A stretch of DNA of 55,691 nt from an uncultured Coriobacteriia bacterium (GTDB lineage Bacteria > Actinomycetota > Coriobacteriia > Coriobacteriales > QAMH01). The DNA is taken from positions 1 to 55,691 of the forward strand of contig CABSKV010000001.1 in NCBI GenBank assembly GCA_902478425.1, written 5' to 3'. The notes under the pieces were generated by a model that saw only the letters and a program-made list of their open reading frames with translations, was not told the origin of the DNA and did not search any database. How positions within the stretch are numbered: position 1 is the first letter of the stretch; each line of letters opens with the position of its first letter. Positions 29,917 through 40,263 of the stretch are shown piece after piece. The translations under genes were made by a program, and so were the position numbers.

Positions 29917-29992
29917 GCCGATGTAGCTCAGCTGGTAGAGCACCGCACTCGTAATGCGGGGGTCAAGAGTTCGAGTCTCTTCGTCGGCACCA
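29917..29992 (+). tRNA. tRNA-Thr (anticodon CGT), CCA encoded
   Basis: Folds into a cloverleaf by hand: acceptor GCCGATG/CGTCGGC, D-arm GCTC/GAGC, anticodon arm CCGCA-CTCGTAA-TGCGG and T-arm AAGAG-TTCGAGT-CTCTT, followed by ACCA. Confidence 0.95.
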
Positions 29993-30002
29993 CCAAAACC
30001 CA

Positions 30003-30026
30003 GGGCCCGCGTCGCGGGCCTTTTTG
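30003..30026 (+). terminator. Intrinsic terminator after tRNA-Thr
   Basis: Stem GGCCCGC/GCGGGCC followed by TTTTTGTT. Confidence 0.75.
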
Positions 30027-30041
30027 TTCTAGGAGGCATCC

Positions 30042-30800
30042 ATGGCGTTCTCACTCGACGATCTTGCGGCACACTACGCGCAGCTTCCCGAGGCAGGCGG
30101 CCTCGATAGTCGCTGCGAGATGTTCGTCCCCGGCGGCCTGAACGACCAGACCGTCCTCGACCTGGCATGCCGTCGTGGCCTGGGCGTCTACAAGCTCTCC
30201 GACCACGTGGGTCCGGCCGGCCATGTCATCGGCGTCGATTGGCGCGAGTCCTTCATCGAGCGCGCCCGCGAAGGCGAGGCCCATGCTGTCGAGAAGAACA
30301 AGCTCACCAAAAGCAACATGGAGTTCGTCGTCACCTATCCCGAGATGATCGACCAGATCGGCATCGAGGAGGGTAGCCTCGACTACGTCTACGTCAACAG
30401 CGCCCTCAACCTCTTCTACGATCCGGCGCACGTCATCAAGCTCATCGGCCGCCTGCTCGTGCCGGGCGGCAAGCTCGTGTGCCAGACGGTACTCGCCACG
30501 ACACCGCGCGACAAGCAGGTCATCGCCGAGGCGCGCGCAATCGGAAACGTCGTCCAGGCGGCTCCGAATCGCAAGAACTTCGCGCTCTGGCTGCATAACG
30601 CCGGCATGGACATGCCCACCTACGAGACGCTCGAGGCGCGTCCCATCCAGCCCTGCGACGCCGTGGCCGCAGACGGGCAGGCGCCCGTTGTCGAGACGGA
30701 CGAGGACGCGCGCTTCACGAGCTGCGTCGTGAACGTCGAGAAGCTCGGCGGCTTCGACTACCAGGCCTTCCTGCTCAAGGACATGAGCGATTTTCGCTAG
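30042..30800 (+). CDS. Class I SAM-dependent methyltransferase (first gene of the MoxR/vWA/LRR operon)
   Basis: SD AGGAGG lies 5 nt upstream. Motif I VLDLACRRGLG, post-I VIGVDW, motif II LDYVYVNSAL and motif III LLVPGGKLV are present. It is paralogous to the C-terminal domain of the 34815..37061 product. Confidence 0.85.
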   Translation: MAFSLDDLAAHYAQLPEAGGLDSRCEMFVPGGLNDQTVLDLACRRGLGVYKLSDHVGPAGHVIGVDWRESFIERAREGEAHAVEKNKLTKSNMEFVVTYPEMIDQIGIEEGSLDYVYVNSALNLFYDPAHVIKLIGRLLVPGGKLVCQTVLATTPRDKQVIAEARAIGNVVQAAPNRKNFALWLHNAGMDMPTYETLEARPIQPCDAVAADGQAPVVETDEDARFTSCVVNVEKLGGFDYQAFLLKDMSDFR

Positions 30801-30802
30801 AG

Positions 30803-33088
30803 ATGGGCTGGGGTAGGGAAATGCCGGTTATGACTGGTGGCCTTGACGCCGAAGGCGACGAGGAGTTCTCGAGAATCAAGGAAGTGGCTGTCGTGGCTCT
30901 GAGCGATGGATTGAGAAGCGTCGAGGAAGTCGAGCGCATGCAGGAGATCTTCGCGCGCAACCACGACGAACACGAGCGTCTCGTTCGCGAGGATGCGGCT
31001 GCGTGCTCGGAGGAGCGCGCGCTTATGCTCGATGACGGCACGCTGTGGGAGTACGTGACCGTGCATGACGAGTACGTGCGCATCATCGGCTGCAAGACCG
31101 ACACCGTCACGCTCGAGATTCCCGCCACCATCGAGGACAAGCCGGTGGCCGAGCTAGCCGTCGATGCGTGCTCGTATCTCGAGTCGGTGCGCGAGATCAT
31201 CTGCTCGCCGCAGATCGAGAAGATCGGCAACTGCGCGTTTCGCGCGTGCACGAAGCTCGAACGCCTCGTCTTGCCCCGCAACGTCGAGACCTACGACTCG
31301 TCGTGGGTGCGTGGCTGCCGCAAGCTGTCCGAGCTCACCTTGCCCGGCATGCTCGCGCGCGTCACGTCGAGCATCTTCGACGAGGGACAGCTGGGCACGC
31401 TCGTCATCGGCTTTGCCACCTACGACTTCGCACCGGGCCTCTTTGCCCAGGGCAAGCTCGAGAGCATCCGCATCGATGACGAGAACCCCTACATCACGAC
31501 CGATGGCAAGGCCATCTTCGCGCACGAAGGCACGCATCTGCGCGTGTTGGCGCTGTCTTGCGAGCGCTACGCCGTGCCCGATGGCTGCCAGGTCATCGAG
31601 AAGAAGGCCTTCGCGAATCGCTCCGAGCTCTACGAAGTCGATCTTCCCGACACCATCACCACGATCGAGGACTACGCGTTCTCCTATTCGGGTCTCGAGA
31701 GCTTCACGTCCCCGCGCGACCTGCGCACCATCGGCGAGCGCGCCTTCTTCCGCTGCCGCAAGCTCACCCAGGTCACCCTCGACGAAGGGCTCGTGTCCAT
31801 CGGCGACGACGCGTTCACCGGGACGGGCATCGAGACCTTGCGCGTGCCCGCGACGCTCGAGACGCTGGGCAATAGCATCGCGGCCGACACCAAGCTCAGC
31901 TTCTCCGGAGATGATGCGGGCTTTTCCATCGCCGCAGGCGGCATTCTCGAAATCGACCGCGAGGGCGGCCTGTATCGCAACACGCCCGAGGGCAAGCACT
32001 TCGTGCATCTGCTCGACGACAAGGCGCGTGAGTACACGGTGCAGCCCGGCACGATCGAAATCGAGCCGCACGCCTTCGCGCATCATGCGCACGTCACGAA
32101 GGTCATGCTGCCCGAGGGCTTGCTGCGCATCGGGGGTGCGGCCTTCCGCGATTGCCACGAGCTTGCCATCGCCGACTTTCCCTCGACACTCGAGGAGGTG
32201 GGCGACGAGGCCTTCCTCGACACCTCGCTTTCGCGCGCCTTCATTCCCCGCAACCTTAGGCGCCTTGGCAATACCGCGCTCATCACGCATGGCGCGCACA
32301 ACGGTGACGAGGCCCCCTCCCTCACGAGCATCGGCGTCGAGGAGGGCAACGAGCGCTTCTATTCCGTCCCCGGTCTGCTCATCGAGCGTCACGACGACGG
32401 CTCGCACGTCGTCGTCTACGCCGACGGCACCGAGAGCGTGCGCATCCCCGAGGACGTGACCGTCATCGACCCATACGCCTTCGGCGGAGCACGCCATCTG
32501 CGCGAGCTGTTCCTGAGCGACCGCATCCGTCGCGTCGGCATGCGCGGCTTGAGCCTCGACTGCTTCGTCGAGCACTTCCACATCGACCTCGACGAACCCC
32601 ACGAGGGTCACGCCTGCTTCGACTTCTACTTCCCCGATGCACCGCGTAGCGTGCACGAGATCCAGCTGGCGTTCAACCTGAGCAGCTCGGTCGACCTGGC
32701 ACGCATCTTCAAGCACTACGACAGCGCGATCGTTAACATGCACGAATTCGACAAGCAGGCGAGTATCGCAGGCGACGATTTCGACGTATATGGCCAAGCC
32801 AAACTCGCGATCGAGCGTCTCTCCGATCCCATCCTCATGAGCAGCACCAACAAGATCATGCTCACGCAGGTTCTCACGAAGAACCTCGAGGAGGTATGCG
32901 AGGCGATCGCGCGCCACGACGACCGCTCATTAATTGATGAGCTTATTGAACTGGATGTTCTGAACAAGGATAATCTTCTCGATGTCATCGACCACATCGG
33001 CAAATTGCAGGATGCGGCGATGACCGGGTACTTGCTCGAAATCAAGCGGCGCATGTTCCAGCGCAGCGCCGTGGACTTCGACCTATAG
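30803..33088 (+). CDS. Cytoplasmic BspA-type leucine-rich-repeat (LRR_5) protein with helical C-terminal domain
   Basis: There is no signal peptide or TM segment, and the N-terminus is acidic. Units such as IEKIGNCAFRACTKLERLVLPRNVETY, IEKKAFANRSELYEVDLPDTITTIEDYAFSYSGLESFTSP and IGERAFFRCRKLTQVTLDEGLVSIGDDAF repeat many times. The start is uncertain (ATG 30803, 30821 or 30830). Confidence 0.8.
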   Translation: MGWGREMPVMTGGLDAEGDEEFSRIKEVAVVALSDGLRSVEEVERMQEIFARNHDEHERLVREDAAACSEERALMLDDGTLWEYVTVHDEYVRIIGCKTDTVTLEIPATIEDKPVAELAVDACSYLESVREIICSPQIEKIGNCAFRACTKLERLVLPRNVETYDSSWVRGCRKLSELTLPGMLARVTSSIFDEGQLGTLVIGFATYDFAPGLFAQGKLESIRIDDENPYITTDGKAIFAHEGTHLRVLALSCERYAVPDGCQVIEKKAFANRSELYEVDLPDTITTIEDYAFSYSGLESFTSPRDLRTIGERAFFRCRKLTQVTLDEGLVSIGDDAFTGTGIETLRVPATLETLGNSIAADTKLSFSGDDAGFSIAAGGILEIDREGGLYRNTPEGKHFVHLLDDKAREYTVQPGTIEIEPHAFAHHAHVTKVMLPEGLLRIGGAAFRDCHELAIADFPSTLEEVGDEAFLDTSLSRAFIPRNLRRLGNTALITHGAHNGDEAPSLTSIGVEEGNERFYSVPGLLIERHDDGSHVVVYADGTESVRIPEDVTVIDPYAFGGARHLRELFLSDRIRRVGMRGLSLDCFVEHFHIDLDEPHEGHACFDFYFPDAPRSVHEIQLAFNLSSSVDLARIFKHYDSAIVNMHEFDKQASIAGDDFDVYGQAKLAIERLSDPILMSSTNKIMLTQVLTKNLEEVCEAIARHDDRSLIDELIELDVLNKDNLLDVIDHIGKLQDAAMTGYLLEIKRRMFQRSAVDFDL

Positions 33089-33103: not shown

Positions 33104-34783
33104 GTGGCGCAGATCACCGACGAGAAGACCGAGCGCTTCAACCGTGCCGCCCGCCTCGCAACTGACATCATCGAGGAATGTCGCGTCCAGCTCATGCTGA
33201 AGTTCCGCTTCCTCGACTTGGCGCTGTGGCGCATGGAGCTCGTCCCGGTGCATTCCCGCGCCCGCTACCCCCTTTCGACGGACGGTACGAACATCTACTT
33301 CGAGCCCTATAGCGTCTTGGCGCGCTTCGAGGAGTCCTTCGACGAGGCGGTGCGCGACTACCTGCACCTCATCTTGCACTGCATCTTCCGTCACCCGTAC
33401 AACCGCGACCACCTGGGCAACCGGGAGGCATGGTCGTTGGCGTGCGATGTCATCGTCGAGAGCGTCGCGATGGAGATGTGCGCGACGCGCTTCACGAGCG
33501 AGCAAGACGCCGACCGCGAGCAATACCTCTCGCAGATCAAGCAGACGATCGGCGCGTTCATGCCGGCCAAGCTCTACCATCTGTTCGACCGCATCATGAA
33601 GAACCCCGAGGGGGCCACGTACTTCAATTACTCGAAGAGCAACATCGTCGAGATGCAGGCGCTGTTCGAGCGCGACAACCACGAGTCGTGGCCGGCCTTC
33701 AACGATTCCGAGGGCGAGGAGAAGCCCGGCGACATCGAGGAGATCGGCGAGGAAGACGAAAGCGCCGAGGAGTCCGCGGACACGAACGCCCAGGACCTGC
33801 AGGCGACAAGCGATATGGAGTCGAGCCAGACCGATACGTCCGACCAGAAGGTGGAGGGTAGCGACGACGGCGATGACGAGCAGGCGTCCGAAGACGACGA
33901 GGGCGAAGATGCCAGCTCGAACGCCGATGGGTCGAGCTTGGACACCTCCAACGACGAGCTCGAGGGCTCGAGCAGCGAGGATGATGCCGACGAGCAGGTC
34001 AACGACGAGACCGCCCACGAGGAGAAGGAGTGGGAGGAGATAAGCCGCCAGATCGAGATGAACCTCGAGACCTTCTCCAAAGAATGGGGCGACGAGGCGC
34101 GCGACCTGATCTCGAGTCTCGCCATCGCCAACCGCAAGACCTACGATTACAGCGACTTTCTGCGACGCTTTGCCACGGTGTCCGAGGACATGCGCATCAA
34201 CGACGACGAGTTCGACTACATCTTCTACACCTACGGCATGAAGCTCTACGGCAACATGCCGCTCGTCGAGCCGCTCGAGTACAAGGAGACCAAGCGCGTG
34301 CGTGACTTCGTCATCGCCATCGACACCTCCGAGTCCGTGAGTGGCAACCTGTGCAAGCGCTTCATCGAGCACACCTTCGACATCCTCATGCAGTCCGAGG
34401 AGTTCGGCAGCAAGGTGAACATCCACATCATCCAATGTGATGCGAAGGTGCAGTCCGACACCAAGATCTCGAACCCCGAGCAGCTCAAGGATTACCTCGC
34501 CAACTTCTACGTGCGCGGATTCGGTGGCACCGACTTCAGGCCGGTGTTCGACTACGTCTCCGACTTGCAGGACCGCGGCGAGCTCGAGGACCTGCAGGGG
34601 CTGCTGTACTTCACCGATGGCCTGGGCTACTACCCCGACAAGATGCCGCCGTACGATGTCGCGTTCGTCTTCATCGACAATGGCGAGACGCATCTGCCGA
34701 GCGTGCCGCCGTGGGCCATGCGCGTGGTGATCGACGAGGATGGCATCAACCGATTCAAGAGCGCCGAGCGCGCCCATTCGTGA
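33104..34783 (+). CDS. DUF2201-type protein: zincin-like N-domain (degenerate HExxH), acidic linker and vWA domain with MIDAS
   Basis: GTG start 8 nt after GGGGGAGGG. H88-LIL-H92-x4-H97 occupies the position of the HExxH motif. Residues ~200-312 are D/E/S-rich low complexity. The vWA core reads FVIAIDTSESVSG (DxSxS MIDAS). Confidence 0.8.
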   Translation: MAQITDEKTERFNRAARLATDIIEECRVQLMLKFRFLDLALWRMELVPVHSRARYPLSTDGTNIYFEPYSVLARFEESFDEAVRDYLHLILHCIFRHPYNRDHLGNREAWSLACDVIVESVAMEMCATRFTSEQDADREQYLSQIKQTIGAFMPAKLYHLFDRIMKNPEGATYFNYSKSNIVEMQALFERDNHESWPAFNDSEGEEKPGDIEEIGEEDESAEESADTNAQDLQATSDMESSQTDTSDQKVEGSDDGDDEQASEDDEGEDASSNADGSSLDTSNDELEGSSSEDDADEQVNDETAHEEKEWEEISRQIEMNLETFSKEWGDEARDLISSLAIANRKTYDYSDFLRRFATVSEDMRINDDEFDYIFYTYGMKLYGNMPLVEPLEYKETKRVRDFVIAIDTSESVSGNLCKRFIEHTFDILMQSEEFGSKVNIHIIQCDAKVQSDTKISNPEQLKDYLANFYVRGFGGTDFRPVFDYVSDLQDRGELEDLQGLLYFTDGLGYYPDKMPPYDVAFVFIDNGETHLPSVPPWAMRVVIDEDGINRFKSAERAHS

Positions 34784-34814: not shown

Positions 34815-37061
34815 ATGAACATTGCCGACGCAAAGGAACAGATCAAGGATACCGTCGAGGCGTACCTCCTCAAGGACGAGGCGGGGATGTACAAGATCAA
34901 CCCCGCACGCCAGCGCCCGATCTTTCTCATCGGCGCGCCGGGCATCGGCAAGACCGCCATCATGGAGCAGATCGCCCAGGAGCTGCAAATCGGCATCGTC
35001 TCGTATTCGATGACGCACCACACGCGCCAGAGCGCGCTTGGCCTGCCGCGCATCGTGCATAACGATTTCGAGGGCTTCGAGTACGATTCCTCCGAGTACA
35101 CGATGAGCGAGATCGTGTCCTCGATCTACGATTACATGGGCGAGACGGGACTGCGCGCCGGCATCCTCTTCCTCGACGAGATCAACTGCGTCTCGGAGAC
35201 GTTGTACCCTTCCATGCTCCAGTTCCTGCAGTTCAAGACCTTCGGGCGTCATCGCGTTCCGCATGATTGGATCATCGTCTGCGCGGGCAATCCGCCCGAG
35301 TACAACAAGTCGGTGCACGAGTTCGATATCGTCACGCTCGACCGCCTGCGCGAAATCGAGGTCGAGCCCGAGTACGCCGCATGGAAGCGTTATGCCGCGC
35401 AAAAGGGCATCCACCCAGCTGTCACCACGTTCCTGGAGGCCAAACCCGATTGCTTCTACCTCGTGCAGTCCAAGCCCGGCGGTGGCAAGAGCTTCGTCAC
35501 GGCGCGCGGATGGGAGGATCTGGCCGAGGCCATCGCGTTGTACGAGGAGATGGGCAAGCCGATCAACCGCGACCTCATTGGGCAGTTCTTGCGTGACGAC
35601 GAGATCGCGGATAGCTTCTCGGTGTACTACAACCTCTTCGACAAGTACCGCTCCGATTACCAGATCATGAACATACTATCTGGTGCGGCGGGACTCGACA
35701 TCATTAATCGTGCTCGCGCCGCCGAGTTCGACGAGCGCGTCGCCTTGCTGGGCCTCATGCTCGATGCGGTCGCGAATGCATGTGCGCATGCACTTGAACA
35801 GGAGGAGGTCGTCATCTCGTTGCGCGATATCCTGCGCGACGCGAAGCCGGCTCTGCTCGACGGAGCGTCCATCGACGAGACGGTTGGCATCGTCGCCTCG
35901 ACGCGTGAGCAGGCACTTGCGCGCAAGGTCGCGTCCGGCACGGCAAAGCCCAGCTACGAGCGCAAGGAAAGCCTCGTCATCGTCAAGCTCAAGCACCTCA
36001 TGGAGCAGTGCAGGCTCGCGGGCACCGTGGTCGGCGAGGAGGCGTTCGCGACCATCAGCGATGCGTATCGCGAGGAGGTCAACGCGATTGACCCGCTCGT
36101 GAAGACCGCCGACAGCCAGATGACCAACGCGATTAAGTTCATCGAGGAGGCCTGGGGCAACGGCCGCGAGATGCTCGTCACGGTGGCCGAGCTCACGACG
36201 CGCCAGACGACCACGCAGTTCATCGCGCATTACGGCAACGAGGCCTACTACGCGCATAATGACGAGCTGCAGGTCGACGAGCATAGACGCAGCCTGTCCG
36301 AGCGCGTGCGCACGCTCGACATCAACGCCGAGGAGGCCATGCAACCGGGCGAGACTGCCGCGGCGGGTGGCCAGACGATAGCCGAGTACTACGGCGGCAA
36401 GCAGTTCGAGTACGGGTTTGCATCCATGAGCAAGATGACCCTGCCCGATGCAGCACAGCTCAAGGGCAAGACGGTGCTCGACGTGGCATGCAGGCGCGGC
36501 AAGGGCTGCTTCAAGTTTAGCGCGAAGGTGGGCGGTACGGGCCGCGTCATCGGCGTGGATTGGTCGCCGAGCTACATCGCCGAGGCGATCGAGGATTCCG
36601 AGCGCGCCTGGCGCAAGAACAACCTCAAGGCTAACAACATGGACTTCAAGGTTGCCTATCCCGAAGACCTCATGGAGGCTGGCATCGGCGAGGGCACGGT
36701 CGACGTCGTCTACATCAACAACGTGATGACGCTGCTCTACGACCAGGGCAAGGCGCTCGAGGAGTTCTACCGCGTGCTCAAGCCGGGCGGACTGCTCATC
36801 TGCGAGACGATCGTCTCGGATGTCACGCGCGACGCGGCCGTGGTCGAGAAGGCGCGCGGCATCGGCAACAGCATCCAGGCGGCGCTTCCCGAAGACGAGC
36901 TGCGCGCTCAGATGAAGGCGGCGGGCTTTAAGGACCTGGAGGTCATCGATTCGTATCCGGTCGATGCCGACCGTGGCTTCACGTCGAGCACGGTCGTCGA
37001 GACCGTCCCCTCGACCGAGACCGTCCGCTTCGAGGCAGTGGCGTTCAACGCACGTAAGTAG
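34815..37061 (+). CDS. MoxR/AAA_5-class AAA+ ATPase fused to a C-terminal class I SAM methyltransferase domain
   Basis: ATG 34815 follows AAGGAAAGGA; the ORF-track start at 34740 overlaps the upstream gene. Walker A is GAPGIGKT, Walker B is ILFLDEIN, and IIVCAGNPPEYN is the sensor-1 region. A helical middle is followed from about nt 36465 by VLDVACRRGKG...VIGVDW...LKPGGLLI. Confidence 0.8.
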   Translation: MNIADAKEQIKDTVEAYLLKDEAGMYKINPARQRPIFLIGAPGIGKTAIMEQIAQELQIGIVSYSMTHHTRQSALGLPRIVHNDFEGFEYDSSEYTMSEIVSSIYDYMGETGLRAGILFLDEINCVSETLYPSMLQFLQFKTFGRHRVPHDWIIVCAGNPPEYNKSVHEFDIVTLDRLREIEVEPEYAAWKRYAAQKGIHPAVTTFLEAKPDCFYLVQSKPGGGKSFVTARGWEDLAEAIALYEEMGKPINRDLIGQFLRDDEIADSFSVYYNLFDKYRSDYQIMNILSGAAGLDIINRARAAEFDERVALLGLMLDAVANACAHALEQEEVVISLRDILRDAKPALLDGASIDETVGIVASTREQALARKVASGTAKPSYERKESLVIVKLKHLMEQCRLAGTVVGEEAFATISDAYREEVNAIDPLVKTADSQMTNAIKFIEEAWGNGREMLVTVAELTTRQTTTQFIAHYGNEAYYAHNDELQVDEHRRSLSERVRTLDINAEEAMQPGETAAAGGQTIAEYYGGKQFEYGFASMSKMTLPDAAQLKGKTVLDVACRRGKGCFKFSAKVGGTGRVIGVDWSPSYIAEAIEDSERAWRKNNLKANNMDFKVAYPEDLMEAGIGEGTVDVVYINNVMTLLYDQGKALEEFYRVLKPGGLLICETIVSDVTRDAAVVEKARGIGNSIQAALPEDELRAQMKAAGFKDLEVIDSYPVDADRGFTSSTVVETVPSTETVRFEAVAFNARK

Positions 37062-37101: not shown

Positions 37102-37130
37102 AAAAAGGGGCGGCCCATGTGGACCGCCCC
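37102..37130 (-). terminator. Intrinsic terminator for the minus-strand paaK-like operon
   Basis: Stem GGGGCGG..CCGCCCC plus 2 inner pairs, followed on the minus strand by TTTTT. Confidence 0.7.
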
Positions 37131-37159
37131 TGCGCGACTACCGAGTCAAAGAGCCGTTT

Positions 37160-37813
37160 CTAGAACTTCGCGTACTTCTTGAGGTTACCCTCGAGCTTCC
37201 CGATGAATTTTCTGGCCGTGTCGGAGAGCTCCGCGTCCTTCTTCACGATGTAGCCCAGATGCAGCGTTACGTCTGTGTCGAGGCGCACCGTGGCCAGCGA
37301 GGATCCATCGGAGATGCCGACGAGAATGCCGCTTGTCACCGTGTAGCCGTTGAGTGCGACGATGAGCTCGGAGAGCGATGCGCGATCCGTGCATGCGATG
37401 CTCTTGCGGCGATGCTCATCGGCAAGCGCCTCCTCGGCGAAATAGACCGGGGCATCCTCCTCCTGCTCGAAGTAGATGTACGGGAAGTCCTCGAGCTGGT
37501 CGAGCGTGAGCGATTCGGCGTTTACGAACGGATGGCTCTTGGGCAACGCGACACGTGGTGTCGACTCAATGAGTTCGACGAATTCCACGCCAGCCTCGTC
37601 AAACGCCTTCTCGAGCCCGTCTTTCGAGCGTGTCGTCTCGACGAGCACGCCGATCTCGCTCTCTCCGTCTGCGACGTCCTCGATGACGCGCTTGGTCGTG
37701 CGGTCGCGCAGCGCATACTCGTAATCATCGCCGCCAAGTGCGAGGACGAGCGCCGCGAAGGATTGAACATCGAACAGGTAATGCTGTCCGGAAATGGCGA
37801 ATTTCTTGGTCAT
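37160..37813 (-). CDS. Stand-alone LysR-type effector-binding (substrate-binding) domain protein with no HTH
   Basis: This 217-aa protein aligns along its whole length with residues ~88-300 of the LysR regulator at 39337..40263 (shared SxQHYxF, SxIG, LxLDxLEDxPxxxFEQ, DRAxL, GYTxxxGIL, TDxTxxxGY). There is no N-terminal wHTH. SD is AAGGGA. Confidence 0.75.
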   Translation of the reverse strand: MTKKFAISGQHYLFDVQSFAALVLALGGDDYEYALRDRTTKRVIEDVADGESEIGVLVETTRSKDGLEKAFDEAGVEFVELIESTPRVALPKSHPFVNAESLTLDQLEDFPYIYFEQEEDAPVYFAEEALADEHRRKSIACTDRASLSELIVALNGYTVTSGILVGISDGSSLATVRLDTDVTLHLGYIVKKDAELSDTARKFIGKLEGNLKKYAKF

Positions 37814-37831
37814 GGTATATCCCTTGCCTTC

Positions 37832-39175
37832 CTACGCGTCCTGGTTGCGCTCGTCGATGAAGCGCTTGGCCTTGTGCTCACTTGAGGTGCCCAGCTTGTC
37901 GGTGTCGAACACGAGCACCTTGGCCGGCCGGACGCCGGTATGCGTCTTGAGTTCGTTCTCGACGCGCTTGGCAATCTCATCGTACGCCTCGTCGGAGCCA
38001 AACGCACGCTCGACGGAGACTTCGTAACGCGTCGTGTAGTTCTCGTCGTACACGCGGATGAGGTACTCGCCCGACAGCCCCTTGTCGTTGCGCACGATGT
38101 ATTCGATGTCGCTGGGGAACACGTTGACGGCGCTCACGATGAACATCTCGTCCTTGCGGCCCTGGATGTAGATGCGGGTCATGGTGCGGCCGCACTCGCA
38201 GGTCTCGCGGTTGACATGACCGATGTCGCCGCTGCGGAAGCGGATCATCGGACGCGCGCGCTTCTTGAGCGTGGTGTAGACGATTTCGCCGCGCTCACCA
38301 TCGGGCAGGACCTCGCCCGTGACGGGATCGACGACCTCGACGAGAATCTGGTCCTCGATGATGTGCAGGCCGTCCTTGGCGTCGCACATGGCAGCGCAGG
38401 CGCCGTAGATGTCAGATAGGCCGAAGAAGTCGTAGACGCTCGCGTCCCAGATCTCCTCGATGGCCTTGCGCGTTGACTCGATGGAGCCGCCGGGCTCCCC
38501 GGATATGATGATGTGCTTGAGCGAGGCGAAGTCCGTCTTGGGGTCATAGCCTTTCTCGATGGCCTTCTGGCCGAGCTGCCAGGCATATGAGGGCGACGAC
38601 CAGAAGAAGGTGGGCTGATACTGCTTCATCGCCCACAGCAGGCGATCGCTCGGAACAGCGCCGACCCAGATGCCGAGCGCGCCGAGCTCCTGGGCGCCGA
38701 TGACGCAAGGGCCGCCGACGTAGAGCGCGAAGTTCATGCCGTGCAGGTAGCGATCGTTGGGACGCATGCCTGCCTGCCAGAACAAGCGGCTTTCGGCTTT
38801 CATGAAGTCCTCGAAATCACCTTGGGTAAAGGGGCTCATCGTGGGCACGCCGGTCGAACCCGAGGAAGTGGCCATGTAGACGACGTCGTCTTCGGGCACA
38901 CCGCACAGCTCGCCAAAGAAGCTGCCGACACCTTGCGTGTCACGCTCCGTCTGCTTGTTGATGAAGGGGAACTTCTCCAGGTCGGCGAGGGTCTCGATTT
39001 CGGGCGAGACACCAGCCTCATCCCAGGCGCGCTTGTAATACGGGCAGTTGTCGTAGGCGAATTTCAGCTCGTCTTTGAGATAGCCAAGCTGCAACTCCTC
39101 AAGCTGCTCGCGCGGCATGGTCTCGATCTCTTTGTCGTAGTACTCTTGGTCATATGGAACGTTCTTCTTTGCCAT
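37832..39175 (-). CDS. Phenylacetate-CoA ligase family protein (PaaK / coenzyme F390 synthetase-like adenylating enzyme)
   Basis: AMP-binding P-loop TSSGSTGVPT, SGEPGG, and a C-terminal domain ending in the KAKRFIDER motif. SD is AAGGAG. Confidence 0.88.
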   Translation of the reverse strand: MAKKNVPYDQEYYDKEIETMPREQLEELQLGYLKDELKFAYDNCPYYKRAWDEAGVSPEIETLADLEKFPFINKQTERDTQGVGSFFGELCGVPEDDVVYMATSSGSTGVPTMSPFTQGDFEDFMKAESRLFWQAGMRPNDRYLHGMNFALYVGGPCVIGAQELGALGIWVGAVPSDRLLWAMKQYQPTFFWSSPSYAWQLGQKAIEKGYDPKTDFASLKHIIISGEPGGSIESTRKAIEEIWDASVYDFFGLSDIYGACAAMCDAKDGLHIIEDQILVEVVDPVTGEVLPDGERGEIVYTTLKKRARPMIRFRSGDIGHVNRETCECGRTMTRIYIQGRKDEMFIVSAVNVFPSDIEYIVRNDKGLSGEYLIRVYDENYTTRYEVSVERAFGSDEAYDEIAKRVENELKTHTGVRPAKVLVFDTDKLGTSSEHKAKRFIDERNQDA

Positions 39176-39287
39176 GCCGAGCTCCTTTCGTGTGTTATCG
39201 ATCTTGCTCTCGGATAGACGTCCGCTATTTCACCACTCTTTCGAACGTTTGCATAGAACTTTGACCATGCGTAGTTTCGATACCTTG

Positions 39288-39302
39288 CTATTGATAAAAT
39301 AG
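39288..39302. promoter_or_regulatory. Candidate LysR box (T-N11-A dyad) in the divergent paaK-like/lysR intergenic region
   Basis: CTATTGATAAAATAG is CTATT-N5-AATAG and contains T-N11-A. It sits in the most AT-rich stretch of the window, 35 nt upstream of the lysR ATG. Confidence 0.3.
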
Positions 39303-39336
39303 ATTACTAGGCGATATATGCAATTGAAGGGAAACT

Positions 39337-40263
39337 ATGACACTCCAACAGCTTCGCTATCTCATCGCGATAGCCGAAACCGGCTCCATGAGCGCGGCGG
39401 CAAAGCAGATGTACGCATCACAATCGAATCTCTCGATTGCCGTCAAGGAACTCGAGCGCGAATTCGGCATCGACATATTCACGCGCACCAATCGTGGCGT
39501 GGCGCTCACGAACGAAGGAAACGAGCTGCTTGCCTACGCGCGGCAGATCGTCGAGCAGGCGAACATACTCGAGGAGCATTACGCGAGCAAGAGCCACGAG
39601 GCGCGCTTCTCGGTTTCGACACAGCATTACGCGTTCTGCGTCCGCGCGTTCATCGACACGGTGGACAGCTGCGATGACGAGGAATACGACTTCATCATGC
39701 GCGAGGCAGCGACTGGCGAGATTATCGACGACGTGCGCACGCATCGCTCCGACATTGGCATTCTCTACATCGATCGGCACAACGCCCGCGTGCTCAGAAG
39801 CGCGTTCGAGGATGCACAGCTCACGTTCACGCCGCTCTTCGAGGCACCCGTCAACGTCTTCGTGGGCGAGCATCATCCGCTGGCGCAGCGCTCGCTTCTC
39901 AAGCTGGACGAGCTCGAAGATTACCCACGCTACTCGTTCGAGCAGGGCGTCGCCAATTCCTTCTTCTTCTCCGAAGAACCGCTTTCCGAGGTACCGCACA
40001 AGCGCAAGATACGCATCTCCGACCGTGCCACGCTCACGAGTTTGCTCACCGACTTCGATGGCTACACGCTCTCGACGGGCATACTCACACCCGAGATGCA
40101 GGACGGCATCGTCACCATACCGCTCGACACCGACATCACCATGACCGTCGGATACCTCATCCACAAGGAGCGTGTGCTTGACGGCTTGCTCGCGACGTAC
40201 ATCGACAACCTGCGCGCCGTCATCAAGAGCAACCCGCTCGTTGCGAGGTATCTGGGCGAGTGA
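39337..40263 (+). CDS. LysR-family transcriptional regulator
   Basis: N-terminal wHTH (MTLQQLRYLIAIAETGSMSAAAKQMYASQSNLSIAVKELEREFGIDIFTR) plus a LysR substrate-binding domain. Confidence 0.92.
   Translation: MTLQQLRYLIAIAETGSMSAAAKQMYASQSNLSIAVKELEREFGIDIFTRTNRGVALTNEGNELLAYARQIVEQANILEEHYASKSHEARFSVSTQHYAFCVRAFIDTVDSCDDEEYDFIMREAATGEIIDDVRTHRSDIGILYIDRHNARVLRSAFEDAQLTFTPLFEAPVNVFVGEHHPLAQRSLLKLDELEDYPRYSFEQGVANSFFFSEEPLSEVPHKRKIRISDRATLTSLLTDFDGYTLSTGILTPEMQDGIVTIPLDTDITMTVGYLIHKERVLDGLLATYIDNLRAVIKSNPLVARYLGE

What the first reader, a model, noticed from the sequence alone, without database searches (positions are those of the whole stretch)
34815..37061. AAA+ ATPase covalently fused to a methyltransferase whose paralog opens the same operon; both carry an atypical motif I (A-C-R-R-G-x-G)
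Seen: the last ~200 residues of the ATPase protein align colinearly with the stand-alone methyltransferase at 30042-30800.
- ATPase C-terminus: GKTVLDVACRRGKGCFKFSAKVGGTGRVIGVDWSPSYIAEA...VDVVYINNVMTLLYD...VLKPGGLLICETIV...ARGIGNSIQAA...VRFEAVAFNARK
- Stand-alone protein: QTVLDLACRRGLGVYKLSDHVGPAGHVIGVDWRESFIERA...LDYVYVNSALNLFYD...LLVPGGKLVCQTVL...ARAIGNVVQAA...ARFTSCVVNVEKL

By eye roughly two in five positions are identical. In both, the canonical SAM-binding GxGxG is replaced by ACRRGxG.

Inference: the operon has kept one free and one motor-tethered copy of the same unusual methyltransferase. That suggests the enzyme works as a homo- or hetero-dimer at the ATPase, or that methylation is coupled to substrate remodelling. 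I do not recognise a MoxR-methyltransferase fusion among characterised MoxR proteins.
Basis: partly seen in the sequence, partly recalled or inferred. Interest (0 to 1): 0.7.

Follow-up and report, generated by a model that had tools for sequence, protein, structure and literature searches.

The report
MoxR ATPase fused to odd methyltransferase
A gut actinobacterium carries a real, conserved gene that joins a MoxR-type protein-remodelling ATPase to an unusual methyltransferase-like domain, inside a widespread but unstudied three-gene module, and a free sister copy of the methyltransferase was added to the operon only recently.

Summary
Gene 34815-37061 (748 aa) is a MoxR-class AAA+ ATPase followed by a ~180-aa helical extension, a disordered linker and an ArsM-fold class I methyltransferase domain. 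This domain is 38% identical (E 8e-46) to the free methyltransferase at 30042-30800. Both carry A-C-R-R-G-x-G in place of GxGxG.

It is not an assembly artefact. At least 120 full-length protein clusters from independent Coriobacteriia/Eggerthellaceae assemblies share the architecture.

The interpretation needs re-framing:
- The conserved unit is a triad: a cytoplasmic LRR_5 protein, a DUF2201 VWA protein with an intact MIDAS site, and a ~500-aa MoxR-like ATPase. It is widespread in gut anaerobes.
- The methyltransferase fusion is a Coriobacteriia-only addition.
- The free copy belongs to a sister family. In this clade it was inserted between tRNA-Thr and the LRR gene. Elsewhere it occurs away from the triad.

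Both copies are under purifying selection. The arsenic-binding cysteines of ArsM are absent.

The most likely function is an ATP-driven client-remodelling machine that carries a tethered methyl-transfer or SAM-binding module. The client is unknown. In relatives, but not in this window, the operon includes an acetylene-hydratase/catechol-dehydroxylase-like molybdoenzyme.

I rate it a new variant of a known kind, of moderate interest.

The parts
29917..29992 (+). tRNA-Thr(CGT), directly upstream of the operon
   Evidence: ARAGORN. The same tRNA precedes the operon in L005, L007, L008, L014 and L027, and in L012, which lacks the free methyltransferase.
30002..30022 (+). G+C-rich hairpin plus T-run (tRNA terminator-like), 20 nt before the ATG of the free methyltransferase. 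AGGAGG lies 7 nt upstream of that ATG.
   Evidence: Pattern scan and sequence. This is a consensus match only. No promoter-like site lies between the tRNA and the ATG.
30042..30800 (+). Free methyltransferase 'MT-A' (252 aa), ArsM-fold class I, sister family of the fused domain
   Evidence: Pfam Methyltransf_31 E 1e-16. 38% identity to fusion residues 522-748. dN/dS 0.13-0.31 against four relatives.
30165..30185 (+). Motif I of MT-A: A-C-R-R-G-L-G
   Evidence: Translation and family alignment.
30803..33088 (+). Cytoplasmic BspA-type LRR_5 protein (761 aa) with a conserved helical C-terminal domain ending ...DFDL. Third component of the triad.
   Evidence: Pfam LRR_5 E 2e-55. No signal peptide is evident on reading the N-terminus. 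Start lies 2 nt after the MT-A stop. Orthologues sit next to the VWA and ATPase genes. C-terminal conservation.
33104..34783 (+). DUF2201 VWA-like partner (559 aa): metallopeptidase-like N-domain (H88-x3-H92, no catalytic Glu), long acidic linker (~residues 200-310), VWA domain with intact MIDAS
   Evidence: Pfam DUF2201 E 2e-12. Invariant H88, H92, D407, T408, S409, S411, T476 and D505 across 6 orthologues down to 29% identity. phrog_1314 E 8e-29.
34322..34336 (+). MIDAS D-x-S-x-S (DTSES) of the VWA domain
   Evidence: Translation and alignment.
34815..35714 (+). Fusion protein residues 1-300: MoxR-class AAA+ module. Walker A GAPGIGKT at 34932-34955, Walker B D121-E122, sensor-1 N159, R177, R231.
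   Evidence: Pfam AAA_5. These residues are invariant in 64 family members at 33-49% identity. AF2 model pLDDT 91.7. Best Foldseek matches are NorQ (E 8.5e-8) and CbbQ2. dN/dS 0.02-0.05.
35715..36263 (+). Residues ~301-483: all-helical extension shared with the ~500-aa methyltransferase-less family members
   Evidence: AF2 secondary structure with high confidence. Representatives of ~500 aa align over query residues 1-500.
36264..36449 (+). Residues ~484-545: low-confidence, length-variable linker
   Evidence: pLDDT <50 for residues 484-518. No consensus and variable length in 35 orthologues of 744-848 aa.
36450..37061 (+). Residues 546-748: ArsM-fold class I methyltransferase-like domain. Motif I ACRRGKG at 36486-36506, D582 at the end of beta-2. 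N636 and S686 replace the As-binding Cys174 and Cys224 of ArsM.
   Evidence: Pfam. PDB phmmer ArsM E 1e-13 with alignment. Foldseek ArsM/AS3MT E 6e-15, domain pLDDT >90. Conservation. dN/dS 0.08-0.14.
37106..37131 (.). Palindromic G+C-rich hairpin 45 nt after the stop codon. Probable end of the transcription unit, shared with the convergent gene at 37160-37813.
   Evidence: Terminator-like scan. Consensus match only.

Best explanation
The gene encodes the motor subunit of a conserved three-component module: LRR_5 protein + DUF2201 VWA protein + MoxR-class AAA+ ATPase.

Shown here:
- The ATPase has all catalytic AAA+ residues and a NorQ/CbbQ-like fold.
- Its invariable neighbour is a VWA protein with an intact MIDAS site, a long acidic linker and a peptidase-like domain that keeps two His but lacks the catalytic Glu.
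- An LRR_5 protein accompanies the pair in about two thirds of loci.
- In one Coriobacteriia lineage an ArsM-fold methyltransferase-like domain of a lineage-specific family (motif I [G/A/C]-[C/S]-R-[R/K]-G-x-G) is attached to the ATPase C-terminus through a flexible linker.
- In the window's clade a member of the sister family was inserted as a separate first gene.

Inferred by analogy with NorQ-NorD and CbbQ-CbbO:
- The ATPase forms a hexamer that grips the VWA protein.
- ATP hydrolysis pulls on the VWA linker and so remodels a client held by the MIDAS site and/or the LRR adaptor.
- The six tethered methyltransferase domains act on that client, or on a ligand delivered to it, while it is held.
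- The free paralogue has different residues at the two pocket positions that hold the As-binding cysteines in ArsM (N-N/S in the fused family, N-S/V-A in the free family). It therefore most likely performs a separate, accessory methylation rather than being an obligate partner.

The client is not identified. In several relatives the operon begins with an acetylene-hydratase/catechol-dehydroxylase-like molybdoenzyme, which is the best candidate client class in those genomes.
For: - Architecture and paralogy.
- Real and conserved fusion.
- AAA+ catalytic residues invariant across 64 diverse members. Structure closest to NorQ/NorQD and CbbQ2.
- VWA MIDAS invariant.
- Triad statistics in 80 metagenome loci. 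VWA is adjacent in 34/34 loci with enough flank and LRR lies on the same strand in 23/34. Gene orders are LVA 26, VAL 19, VLA 3, LAV 2. The methyltransferase fusion appears in 1/80.
- At 50% clustering, one full-length fusion representative (P0098, 792 aa) heads the list. Several shorter listed proteins align to the MID/MT part of the query (P0122, P0123, P0128, P0131, P0262). Most of the 150 listed are ~500-aa proteins that align over query residues 1-500 and so lack the methyltransferase. Six of the eight longer ones scanned (532-627 aa) hit only AAA-type P-loop families; P0192 also hit Guanylate_kin and ATPase_2 over its P-loop, and P0178 ATPase_2.
- L030 has the same operon and a 69%-identical ATPase without the methyltransferase.
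- Methyltransferase domain: ArsM fold, invariant pocket residues, purifying selection on both copies.
- Sister-family tree with bootstrap 100/81/100.
- Insertion of the free copy after tRNA-Thr.
- NorQD mechanism: VWA finger in the pore and linker remodelling (PMC13036017).
- Molybdoenzyme linkage in L001, L002/3, L016, L017, L030, and nearby in L005, L007, L009.
Against: - No biochemical data exist for any member.
- The central Gly of motif I is an invariant Arg, so SAM binding is unproven. The domain could be non-catalytic.
- The window itself has no molybdoenzyme homologue. Clustering of neighbouring ORFs across all loci held at that point (L001-L109, including the 80 metagenome loci) found no neighbour family, other than the triad, in more than 10 loci. 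The client is therefore unknown and may differ between lineages.
- The hexamer, the ATPase-VWA-LRR complex and methylation of a client are all inferred by analogy. None could be modelled here because no multimer prediction was available.
- A methyltransferase-less orthologue (L030) shows the domain is dispensable for the core function.
Confidence: 0.5

Rival explanations
1. The methyltransferase-like domains are pseudo-enzymes. The Arg-Arg substitution in the glycine loop abolishes SAM-dependent catalysis, and the domain serves as a ligand sensor (SAM/SAH or an anionic metabolite) or a docking scaffold that regulates the ATPase.
For: The central Gly of GxGxG is replaced by an invariant Arg in both families. 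The ArsM catalytic cysteines are lost. The domain is dispensable in L030.
Against: The acidic residue at the end of beta-2 (D582), the Y-P-E segment and the N-N / G-N-S-x-Q-A pocket residues are invariant. dN/dS is 0.08-0.14. Free-standing family members exist on their own in other genomic contexts, which fits an autonomous enzyme better than a docking module. From my own knowledge, bulky residues at the central motif I position occur in active enzymes (catechol O-methyltransferase, G-A-Y-C-G).
Confidence: 0.2
2. The triad is a conflict/defence system of the MoxR-vWA 'ternary' type. The LRR protein senses an invader, the MoxR-VWA pair sets a threshold, and the methyltransferase (or the peptidase-like domain) is the effector.
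For: The layout has three components, with a repeat protein as third partner. The LRR gene is the most divergent (29-43% identity where the AAA module keeps 74-83%) and varies in size and position. There is a weak bpMoxR hit. Distant ATPase + DUF2201-like pairs occur in 358 phage records. The general logic of such systems is described in PMC7159879.
Against: PADLOC returns only sub-family-level or generic matches: mad2 over the MT domains of both copies, weak IetA and mad8 over the P-loop of the fusion, and JetC over the VWA linker. bpMoxR is below its cut-off (23.1 vs 27). The third component is none of VMAP, iSTAND, FtsH or beta-propeller. The locus is single-copy in a syntenic chromosomal position across genera, with no mobile-element genes in the flanks. 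All genes are under strong purifying selection, including LRR at 0.10-0.16. No toxic effector domain is present.
Confidence: 0.12
3. The module is specifically a maturation/activation chaperone for an acetylene-hydratase/catechol-dehydroxylase-like bis-MGD molybdoenzyme, analogous to NorQD for NOR or CoxDE for CO dehydrogenase. The methyltransferase acts on that enzyme, its cofactor or its aromatic substrate.
For: In L001, L002/3, L016, L017 and L030 the Mo enzyme, three small ORFs and LRR-VWA-ATPase are arranged head to tail with short gaps. A paralogous enzyme lies just downstream in L005, L007 and L009. The closest solved structure is acetylene hydratase, E 5e-63. That clade holds the gut catechol dehydroxylases (PMC7028382). 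MoxR-VWA pairs typically mature metalloenzymes (PMC13036017).
Against: The window and its nearest relatives (L008, L014, L019) have no such gene nearby. Among the 80 broader loci it recurs only in L030 and weakly in L097. Eggerthellaceae encode many such enzymes, so some adjacency is expected by chance.
Confidence: 0.15
4. The fusion is an assembly or frameshift artefact joining two genes.
For: None found.
Against: At least 120 independent full-length clusters share the architecture. Thirteen genome loci (L007-L019) encode a full-length or contig-truncated fusion homologue, and in every locus with enough flank the VWA and LRR genes lie next to it. The exact protein occurs on two further contigs. 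The reading frame is continuous and under purifying selection across the junction: linker dN/dS 0.05-0.11.
Confidence: 0.01
5. The domain is an arsenite methyltransferase (ArsM), as the best NCBIfam and PDB matches suggest.
For: The best NCBIfam hit is PRK11873 arsenite methyltransferase, and the best PDB and Foldseek hits are ArsM/AS3MT.
Against: The score is 74.9 bits against a cut-off of 263. As(III)-binding Cys174 and Cys224 are replaced by invariant Asn and Ser in the fused family, and by Ser (Gly or Cys in a few members) and Val/Ala/Ser/Pro in the free family. A long branch separates both families from ArsM-like proteins. No ars genes are nearby.
Confidence: 0.02

Closest known systems
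NorQ-NorD (MoxR AAA+ / VWA pair that inserts non-haem iron into nitric oxide reductase)
   Same: It is the best structural match of the ATPase module (Foldseek E 8.5e-8). Both have an adjacent VWA partner with a MIDAS site and a linker. The published mechanism has a VWA finger in the hexamer pore and ATP-driven remodelling of the partner's linker (PMC13036017).
   Different: Only 14-17% identity. The ATPase here has an extra ~180-aa helical extension and a methyltransferase domain. The VWA partner is DUF2201 type with a peptidase-like N-domain. A third LRR_5 component is present. No nor genes are nearby.
CbbQ-CbbO Rubisco activase (MoxR AAA+ / VWA)
   Same: CbbQ2 is among the top structural matches (6l1q). 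It is also a motor plus VWA adaptor that remodels a dedicated enzyme client.
   Different: No Rubisco context, a different VWA family, and no enzymatic domain on CbbQ.
ArsM / AS3MT arsenite S-adenosylmethionine methyltransferases
   Same: They are the closest fold and sequence relatives of both methyltransferase copies, including the C-terminal subdomain.
   Different: The arsenic-binding cysteines are absent. Motif I is G-x-G-x-G in ArsM and x-C-R-R-G here. There is an insertion after helix B. Scores are far below family cut-offs. ArsM is not fused to an ATPase.
MoxR-vWA-centred ternary conflict systems (VMAP, iSTAND, FtsH, beta-propeller types; Kaur et al. 2020, PMC7159879)
   Same: The logic is MoxR + vWA + a third, often repeat-containing, protein. 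There is a weak bpMoxR similarity.
   Different: The third component is an LRR_5 protein, which is not among the four described classes. The paper mentions no methyltransferase (0 occurrences). The locus looks chromosomal, syntenic and conserved rather than hypervariable.
ATPase + 'metallopeptidase/HNH' gene pair of N4-like and other phages (phrog_1297 + phrog_1314)
   Same: It is a homologous two-gene pair: ATPase E 3e-35 and DUF2201-like protein E 8e-29, matched over its full length. tblastn finds it in 358 phage records.
   Different: Only ~23% identity. The phage pair has no LRR partner, no helical extension beyond ~360 aa and no methyltransferase. Its function in phages is also unknown.

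Membership tests
MoxR-class AAA+ ATPase (Pfam AAA_5) | Pfam AAA_5 match above the gathering score | tested here: met
   33.5 bits vs cut-off 22, residues 36-177.
MoxR-class AAA+ ATPase (Pfam AAA_5) | Walker A, Walker B, sensor 1, arginine finger and sensor 2 residues present and conserved | tested here: met
   G40, G43, G45, K46, T47, D121, E122, N159, R177 and R231 are invariant in 64 members at 33-49% identity.
MoxR-class AAA+ ATPase (Pfam AAA_5) | Fold closest to characterised MoxR proteins | tested here: met
   AF2 model pLDDT 91.7. Top 13 Foldseek PDB hits are NorQ/NorQD and CbbQ2, and CHU_0153 is also listed. TM normalised to target is 0.51-0.62.
MoxR-class AAA+ ATPase (Pfam AAA_5) | Genetically paired with a VWA protein carrying a MIDAS motif | tested here: met
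   VWA is adjacent in 34/34 loci with sufficient flank. DxSxS...T...D is invariant.
MoxR-class AAA+ ATPase (Pfam AAA_5) | Hexameric ring with ATPase and remodelling activity | not testable with these tools
   Needs biochemistry or cryo-EM.
Class I SAM-dependent methyltransferase | Rossmann-like methyltransferase fold and Pfam family match | tested here: met
   Methyltransf_31 at 67.4 bits (cut-off 27) for the fusion and 61.1 bits for MT-A. Foldseek ArsM/AS3MT E 6e-15 with domain pLDDT >90.
Class I SAM-dependent methyltransferase | Canonical glycine-rich motif I (G-x-G-x-G) | tested here: not met
   The central Gly is an invariant Arg, and the first Gly is A, C or G. Only the last Gly is kept.
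Class I SAM-dependent methyltransferase | Acidic residue at the end of beta-2 (binds the ribose hydroxyls) | tested here: met
   D582 is invariant and aligns with D115 of CmArsM. The free family has D (E in P0354).
Class I SAM-dependent methyltransferase | SAM binding and methyl transfer | not testable with these tools
   Requires ITC/DSF and activity assays.
Arsenite methyltransferase (ArsM/AS3MT) | NCBIfam family score above cut-off | tested here: not met
   PRK11873 scores 74.9 (fusion) and 61.3 (MT-A) against a cut-off of 263.
Arsenite methyltransferase (ArsM/AS3MT) | As(III)-binding cysteines (CmArsM Cys174, Cys224) | tested here: not met
   They align to N636 and S686 in the fusion, and to S and V in the window's MT-A. 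ArsM-like outgroups keep both Cys.
MoxR-vWA ternary conflict systems (Kaur et al. 2020) | Third component is VMAP, inactive STAND, FtsH or beta-propeller | tested here: not met
   The third gene is an LRR_5 protein. The paper's four classes are listed.
MoxR-vWA ternary conflict systems (Kaur et al. 2020) | bpMoxR profile above threshold, or a match to a specific defence-system model | tested here: not met
   bpMoxR scores 23.1 against a cut-off of 27. PADLOC gives only generic or weak matches: mad2 over the MT domains, IetA and mad8 over the P-loop of the fusion, and JetC over the VWA linker.
Metalloenzyme-maturation MoxR/VWA pairs (NorQD, CoxDE, CbbQO type) | Genetic linkage to the client enzyme | tested here: inconclusive
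   Linked to an Ahy/Cldh-like bis-MGD enzyme in L001, L002/3, L016, L017, L030, and nearby in L005, L007, L009. Not linked in the window or in the great majority of the 80 broader loci.

The most novel reading that the evidence does not exclude
The LRR_5 / DUF2201-VWA / MoxR triad is an uncharacterised, widespread ATP-driven maturation machine of gut anaerobes. The Coriobacteriia version has captured a new family of ArsM-fold methyltransferases, with an Arg-Arg motif I, to couple client unfolding with methylation. That would be a 'remodel-and-methylate' enzyme with no characterised precedent. It might be needed to activate acetylene-hydratase/catechol-dehydroxylase-type molybdoenzymes that shape gut metabolism of dietary and host catechols.
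Probability: 0.15. Interest if true: 0.75.

Novelty: new variant of a known kind. Interest (0 to 1): 0.5.

Why it matters
MoxR-VWA pairs are known as dedicated maturation or remodelling factors. None characterised so far carries an enzymatic domain on the motor. A methyltransferase tethered six-fold to such a ring would be a new way of coupling covalent modification to mechanical remodelling.

The underlying triad (LRR_5 + DUF2201 VWA + ~500-aa MoxR-like ATPase) is common in human-gut Clostridia and Coriobacteriia. It has distant relatives in N4-like phages and no literature.

In some Eggerthellaceae relatives it is operonic with a molybdoenzyme of the clade that includes gut catechol dehydroxylases. 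This offers a testable lead on how those medically relevant enzymes are matured.

The Arg-Arg motif I family is also a clean test case for how far the SAM-binding loop can diverge.

Tried and rejected
- Misassembly or frameshift: rejected.
- Arsenite methyltransferase: rejected on score and missing cysteines.
- Known defence system: PADLOC gave only generic or weak hits (mad2, IetA, mad8, JetC), none specific to a system.
- NCBIfam: no family for the ATPase, VWA or LRR proteins beyond generic or below-cut-off hits.
- Literature on DUF2201, PF09967 and PF13203: four incidental mentions, none functional. MoxR + methyltransferase + von Willebrand: nothing relevant.
- Other C-terminal fusions in the ATPase family. 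The 770-aa ORF in L033 is only an upstream in-frame extension. Eight longer representatives showed no non-ATPase domain; their only hits outside the AAA families were weak Guanylate_kin and ATPase_2 matches over the P-loop.
- Recurrent neighbours besides the triad, across all loci L001-L109: none of note.
- Recent duplication of the fused domain as the origin of MT-A: rejected by the tree.
- Methyltransferase of another type as a general partner: a TylF-type gene lies two genes upstream of the triad in Ventricola (L021/L022). My ArsM-type profile found no linked methyltransferase elsewhere. Other methyltransferase classes in the 80 loci were not screened.
- The genome-contig scan with a single protein reached only close relatives.
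- Geometry of R560/R561 in the predicted pocket could not be inspected, because model coordinates are not exposed.


Full report
**1. What is in the sequence**

Four genes lie head to tail on the + strand, directly after a tRNA-Thr(CGT) gene at 29917-29992:
- a 252-aa methyltransferase, here called MT-A (30042-30800);
- a 761-aa LRR_5 protein (30803-33088);
- a 559-aa DUF2201 VWA-like protein (33104-34783);
- a 748-aa protein (34815-37061).

The gaps between genes are 2, 15 and 31 nt. A hairpin follows at 37106-37131. The ATG at 34815 is the correct start. It has a GGAAAGGA ribosome-binding site, and all orthologues begin there.

Pfam places AAA_5 at residues 36-177 of the last protein and class I methyltransferase families at residues ~550-680. 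BLASTP of MT-A against it gives 38% identity over 232 aligned columns, E 8e-46. The two motifs read ACRRGLG and ACRRGKG.

**2. Not an artefact**

The fusion protein has at least 120 full-length homologous clusters. They are 55-98% identical, 744-848 aa long, and come from four data sources. All carry both domain types. Where named, they are from Eggerthellaceae, Coriobacteriales or Coriobacteriia and are called only 'methyltransferase domain-containing protein' or UbiE-like. Thirteen species-representative genome loci (L007-L019) encode a fusion homologue, full-length except where the contig ends. In every locus with enough flank the VWA and LRR genes lie next to it. The window is 99% identical to MAG UMGS650. 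The junction region is under purifying selection (linker dN/dS 0.05-0.11).

**3. The conserved unit is a triad, not a methyltransferase pair**

In every Coriobacteriia locus with enough flank, the fusion gene lies next to the VWA and LRR genes.

An exhaustive HMMER scan of representatives clustered at 50% identity gave these results:
- One full-length fusion representative (P0098, 792 aa) heads the list.
- A few shorter listed proteins match the MID/MT part of the query, as expected for fragments.
- Most of the 150 listed proteins are ~500 aa, 37-50% identical, and align over query residues 1-500. They have the ATPase plus the helical extension but no methyltransferase.
- Named examples come from Clostridiales, namely Candidatus Ventricola and Candidatus Scatomonas.

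Their contexts show DUF2201-ATPase pairs, with or without an LRR_5 gene.

I then took 80 metagenome loci of this broader family, with G+C content of 30-69%, and screened them with profiles:
- A VWA homologue is adjacent in 34 of 34 loci with enough flank.
- An LRR_5 protein lies on the same strand in 23 of 34.
- The gene order varies: LVA 26, VAL 19, VLA 3, LAV 2.
- Only one locus (L031) has the methyltransferase fusion.

Eight of the longer representatives carry no non-ATPase domain. L030 has the same operon as L002, and its ATPase is 69% identical, but it stops after the helical extension with no methyltransferase. The methyltransferase domain is therefore a lineage-specific, dispensable addition to an older module.

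**4. The components**

ATPase:
- Walker A, Walker B, sensor 1, R177 and R231 are invariant across 64 diverse members.
- With that alignment AlphaFold gives pLDDT 91.7.
- Foldseek's best PDB matches are NorQ and NorQ-NorD complexes, followed by CbbQ2.
- Residues ~301-483 form long helices. Residues 484-518 are predicted with pLDDT below 50, and the stretch up to ~545 has no consensus and varies in length among orthologues.

VWA protein:
- The MIDAS residues D407, T408, S409, S411, T476 and D505 are invariant.
- The N-domain keeps H88-x3-H92, but the position of the catalytic Glu of HExxH holds L, M or A.
- An acidic low-complexity linker separates the two domains.

LRR protein: I see no signal peptide on reading the N-terminus. 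It ends in a conserved helical domain with the tail ...DFDL.

PHROGs link the ATPase and VWA proteins to a phage gene pair (phrog_1297 and phrog_1314). tblastn finds that pair at ~23% identity in N4-like and other phages.

**5. The methyltransferase domains**

Both copies are closest to ArsM/AS3MT by sequence (E 1e-13; profile E 3e-23) and by fold (E 6e-15). Three things argue against an arsenite methyltransferase:
- They score far below the NCBIfam ArsM cut-off.
- The As(III)-binding Cys174 and Cys224 of CmArsM align with invariant N636 and S686 in the fused family. In the free family the Cys174 position is mostly Ser (Gly or Cys in a few members) and the Cys224 position is Val, Ala, Ser or Pro.
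- Motif I is [G/A/C]-[C/S]-R-[R/K]-G-x-G in both families, against G-[S/A]-G-[G/A]-G in ArsM-like proteins.

The ribose-binding Asp (D582) and several pocket residues are invariant.

A neighbour-joining tree places the fused and free families as reciprocally monophyletic sisters, with bootstrap 81 and 100 and joint support 100. A long branch separates them from ArsM-like proteins.

Both copies are under purifying selection, the free one more loosely (dN/dS 0.13-0.31 vs 0.08-0.14).

From my own knowledge, catechol O-methyltransferase (G-A-Y-C-G) shows that a bulky residue at the central motif I position is compatible with SAM binding. The atypical loop therefore does not by itself imply inactivity.

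**6. History of the free copy**

MT-A lies upstream of the LRR gene in two groups of loci. One is the window's close clade (L005-L009, L014), where the fusion is at least 91% identical. The other is the short contigs L027-L029, whose MT-A is 57% identical and is followed directly by an LRR gene.

L012, whose fusion is 74% identical, has tRNA-Thr directly before the LRR gene. MT-A was therefore inserted between them.

More divergent free-family members (45-52% identical) sit in unrelated contexts (L025, L110).

**7. Candidate client**

In L001, L002/3, L016, L017 and the methyltransferase-less L030, the triad follows a ~775-aa bis-MGD molybdoenzyme and three small ORFs with no family assignment, in what looks like one operon. 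The molybdoenzyme's closest solved relative is acetylene hydratase (E 5e-63).

A paralogous enzyme lies just downstream in L005, L007 and L009. Acetylene hydratase is the closest characterised relative of the gut catechol dehydroxylases (PMC7028382).

The window has no such gene, and neither do almost all of the broader loci. This is a lead, not a conclusion.

**8. Mechanism proposed**

By analogy with NorQ-NorD, where a VWA finger enters the pore and ATP-driven twisting remodels the partner's linker (PMC13036017), I propose the following:
- The ATPase forms a hexamer that engages the DUF2201 protein.
- The MIDAS site and/or the LRR adaptor hold a client.
- The tethered methyltransferase domains act on the client, or on a ligand, during remodelling.

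Shown: the components, their conservation, their linkage, the folds and the selection. Inferred: the complex, the direction of action and methyl transfer.

**9. Verdict**

The finding is real and the description accurate. I rate it a new variant of a known kind, namely a MoxR-VWA system with an LRR third component and a motor-tethered methyltransferase. No function is known, and interest is moderate.

Noticed in passing
L001:892-5943, L002:2381-6053, L016:1866-5475, L017:6-1335, L030:250-3853. Related copy at L005:13800-17046.: In relatives the triad is preceded, in one apparent operon, by an acetylene-hydratase/catechol-dehydroxylase-like bis-MGD molybdoenzyme. In L001 and L002 this enzyme has no Pfam Fe4S4-domain hit. 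It is followed by three small ORFs: one is a Cys-poor ferredoxin-like protein, and none has a family assignment. L001 adds a radical SAM gene. The window has no homologue.
   Followed up: partly
window 29917-30041; L012:5837-6086: tRNA-Thr(CGT) sits directly before the operon. A terminator-like hairpin lies only 20 nt before the MT-A start, and no promoter-like site lies between them. L012 has the same tRNA directly before the LRR gene. MT-A was therefore inserted at this junction, and its transcription may depend on read-through.
   Followed up: partly
phage records such as MW544066.1:11919-13013 (hit H8): 358 phage records (N4-like Salmonella and Pseudomonas phages, Vibrio phages and others) carry a distant homologue of the ATPase, about 23% identical in the listed examples. 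In Salmonella phage vB_SalP_TR2 (H8/H9) the features under the match are annotated 'NTPase | metallopeptidase' or 'ATPase | HNH endonuclease'. The Vibrio phage hits list only 'ATPase'. The 'HNH endonuclease' label of phrog_1314 looks like a mis-annotation of a DUF2201-type protein.
   Followed up: partly
L015:7439-9649 (- strand); L110:2076-3212: A Glu_synthase-domain protein with rubredoxin/rubrerythrin modules lies next to a CRRG-type methyltransferase in two unrelated arrangements. In L015 it is divergent from the fusion gene. In L110 it is directly downstream of a free family member. This may be a functional hint or a coincidence.
   Followed up: no
window 33365-33379 (VWA protein residues 88-92): The 'putative metallopeptidase' N-domain of the DUF2201 protein keeps H-x3-H. 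It has L, M or A where the catalytic Glu of HExxH would be, in all six orthologues down to 29% identity. It is probably a metal- or peptide-binding domain rather than a peptidase.
   Followed up: partly
window 33074-33085 (C-terminus of the LRR protein): The LRR_5 protein ends in a conserved helical domain and an acidic ...DFDL tail. D758 is invariant even in the Clostridiales homologue. This tail is a candidate ligand for the VWA MIDAS site.
   Followed up: no
L016 (CAVAWX010000003.1): The record is labelled Acidaminococcaceae. Its 67% G+C and Coriobacteriia-type gene order around the fusion suggest the contig was mis-binned.
   Followed up: no
window 37160-40263: Downstream and convergent are three genes: a 217-aa ORF with only a LysR substrate-binding domain, a phenylacetate-CoA-ligase-like AMP-binding enzyme (37832-39175), and a divergent full-length LysR regulator (39337-40263). 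In L005 and L007 this block is separated from the operon by a PucR-like regulator, a molybdoenzyme and an FKBP gene. That segment is missing in the window.
   Followed up: no
L021:3613-4494: In Candidatus Ventricola a TylF-type O-methyltransferase gene lies two genes upstream of a methyltransferase-less LRR-VWA-ATPase triad. This may be an independent methyltransferase association or chance adjacency.
   Followed up: no
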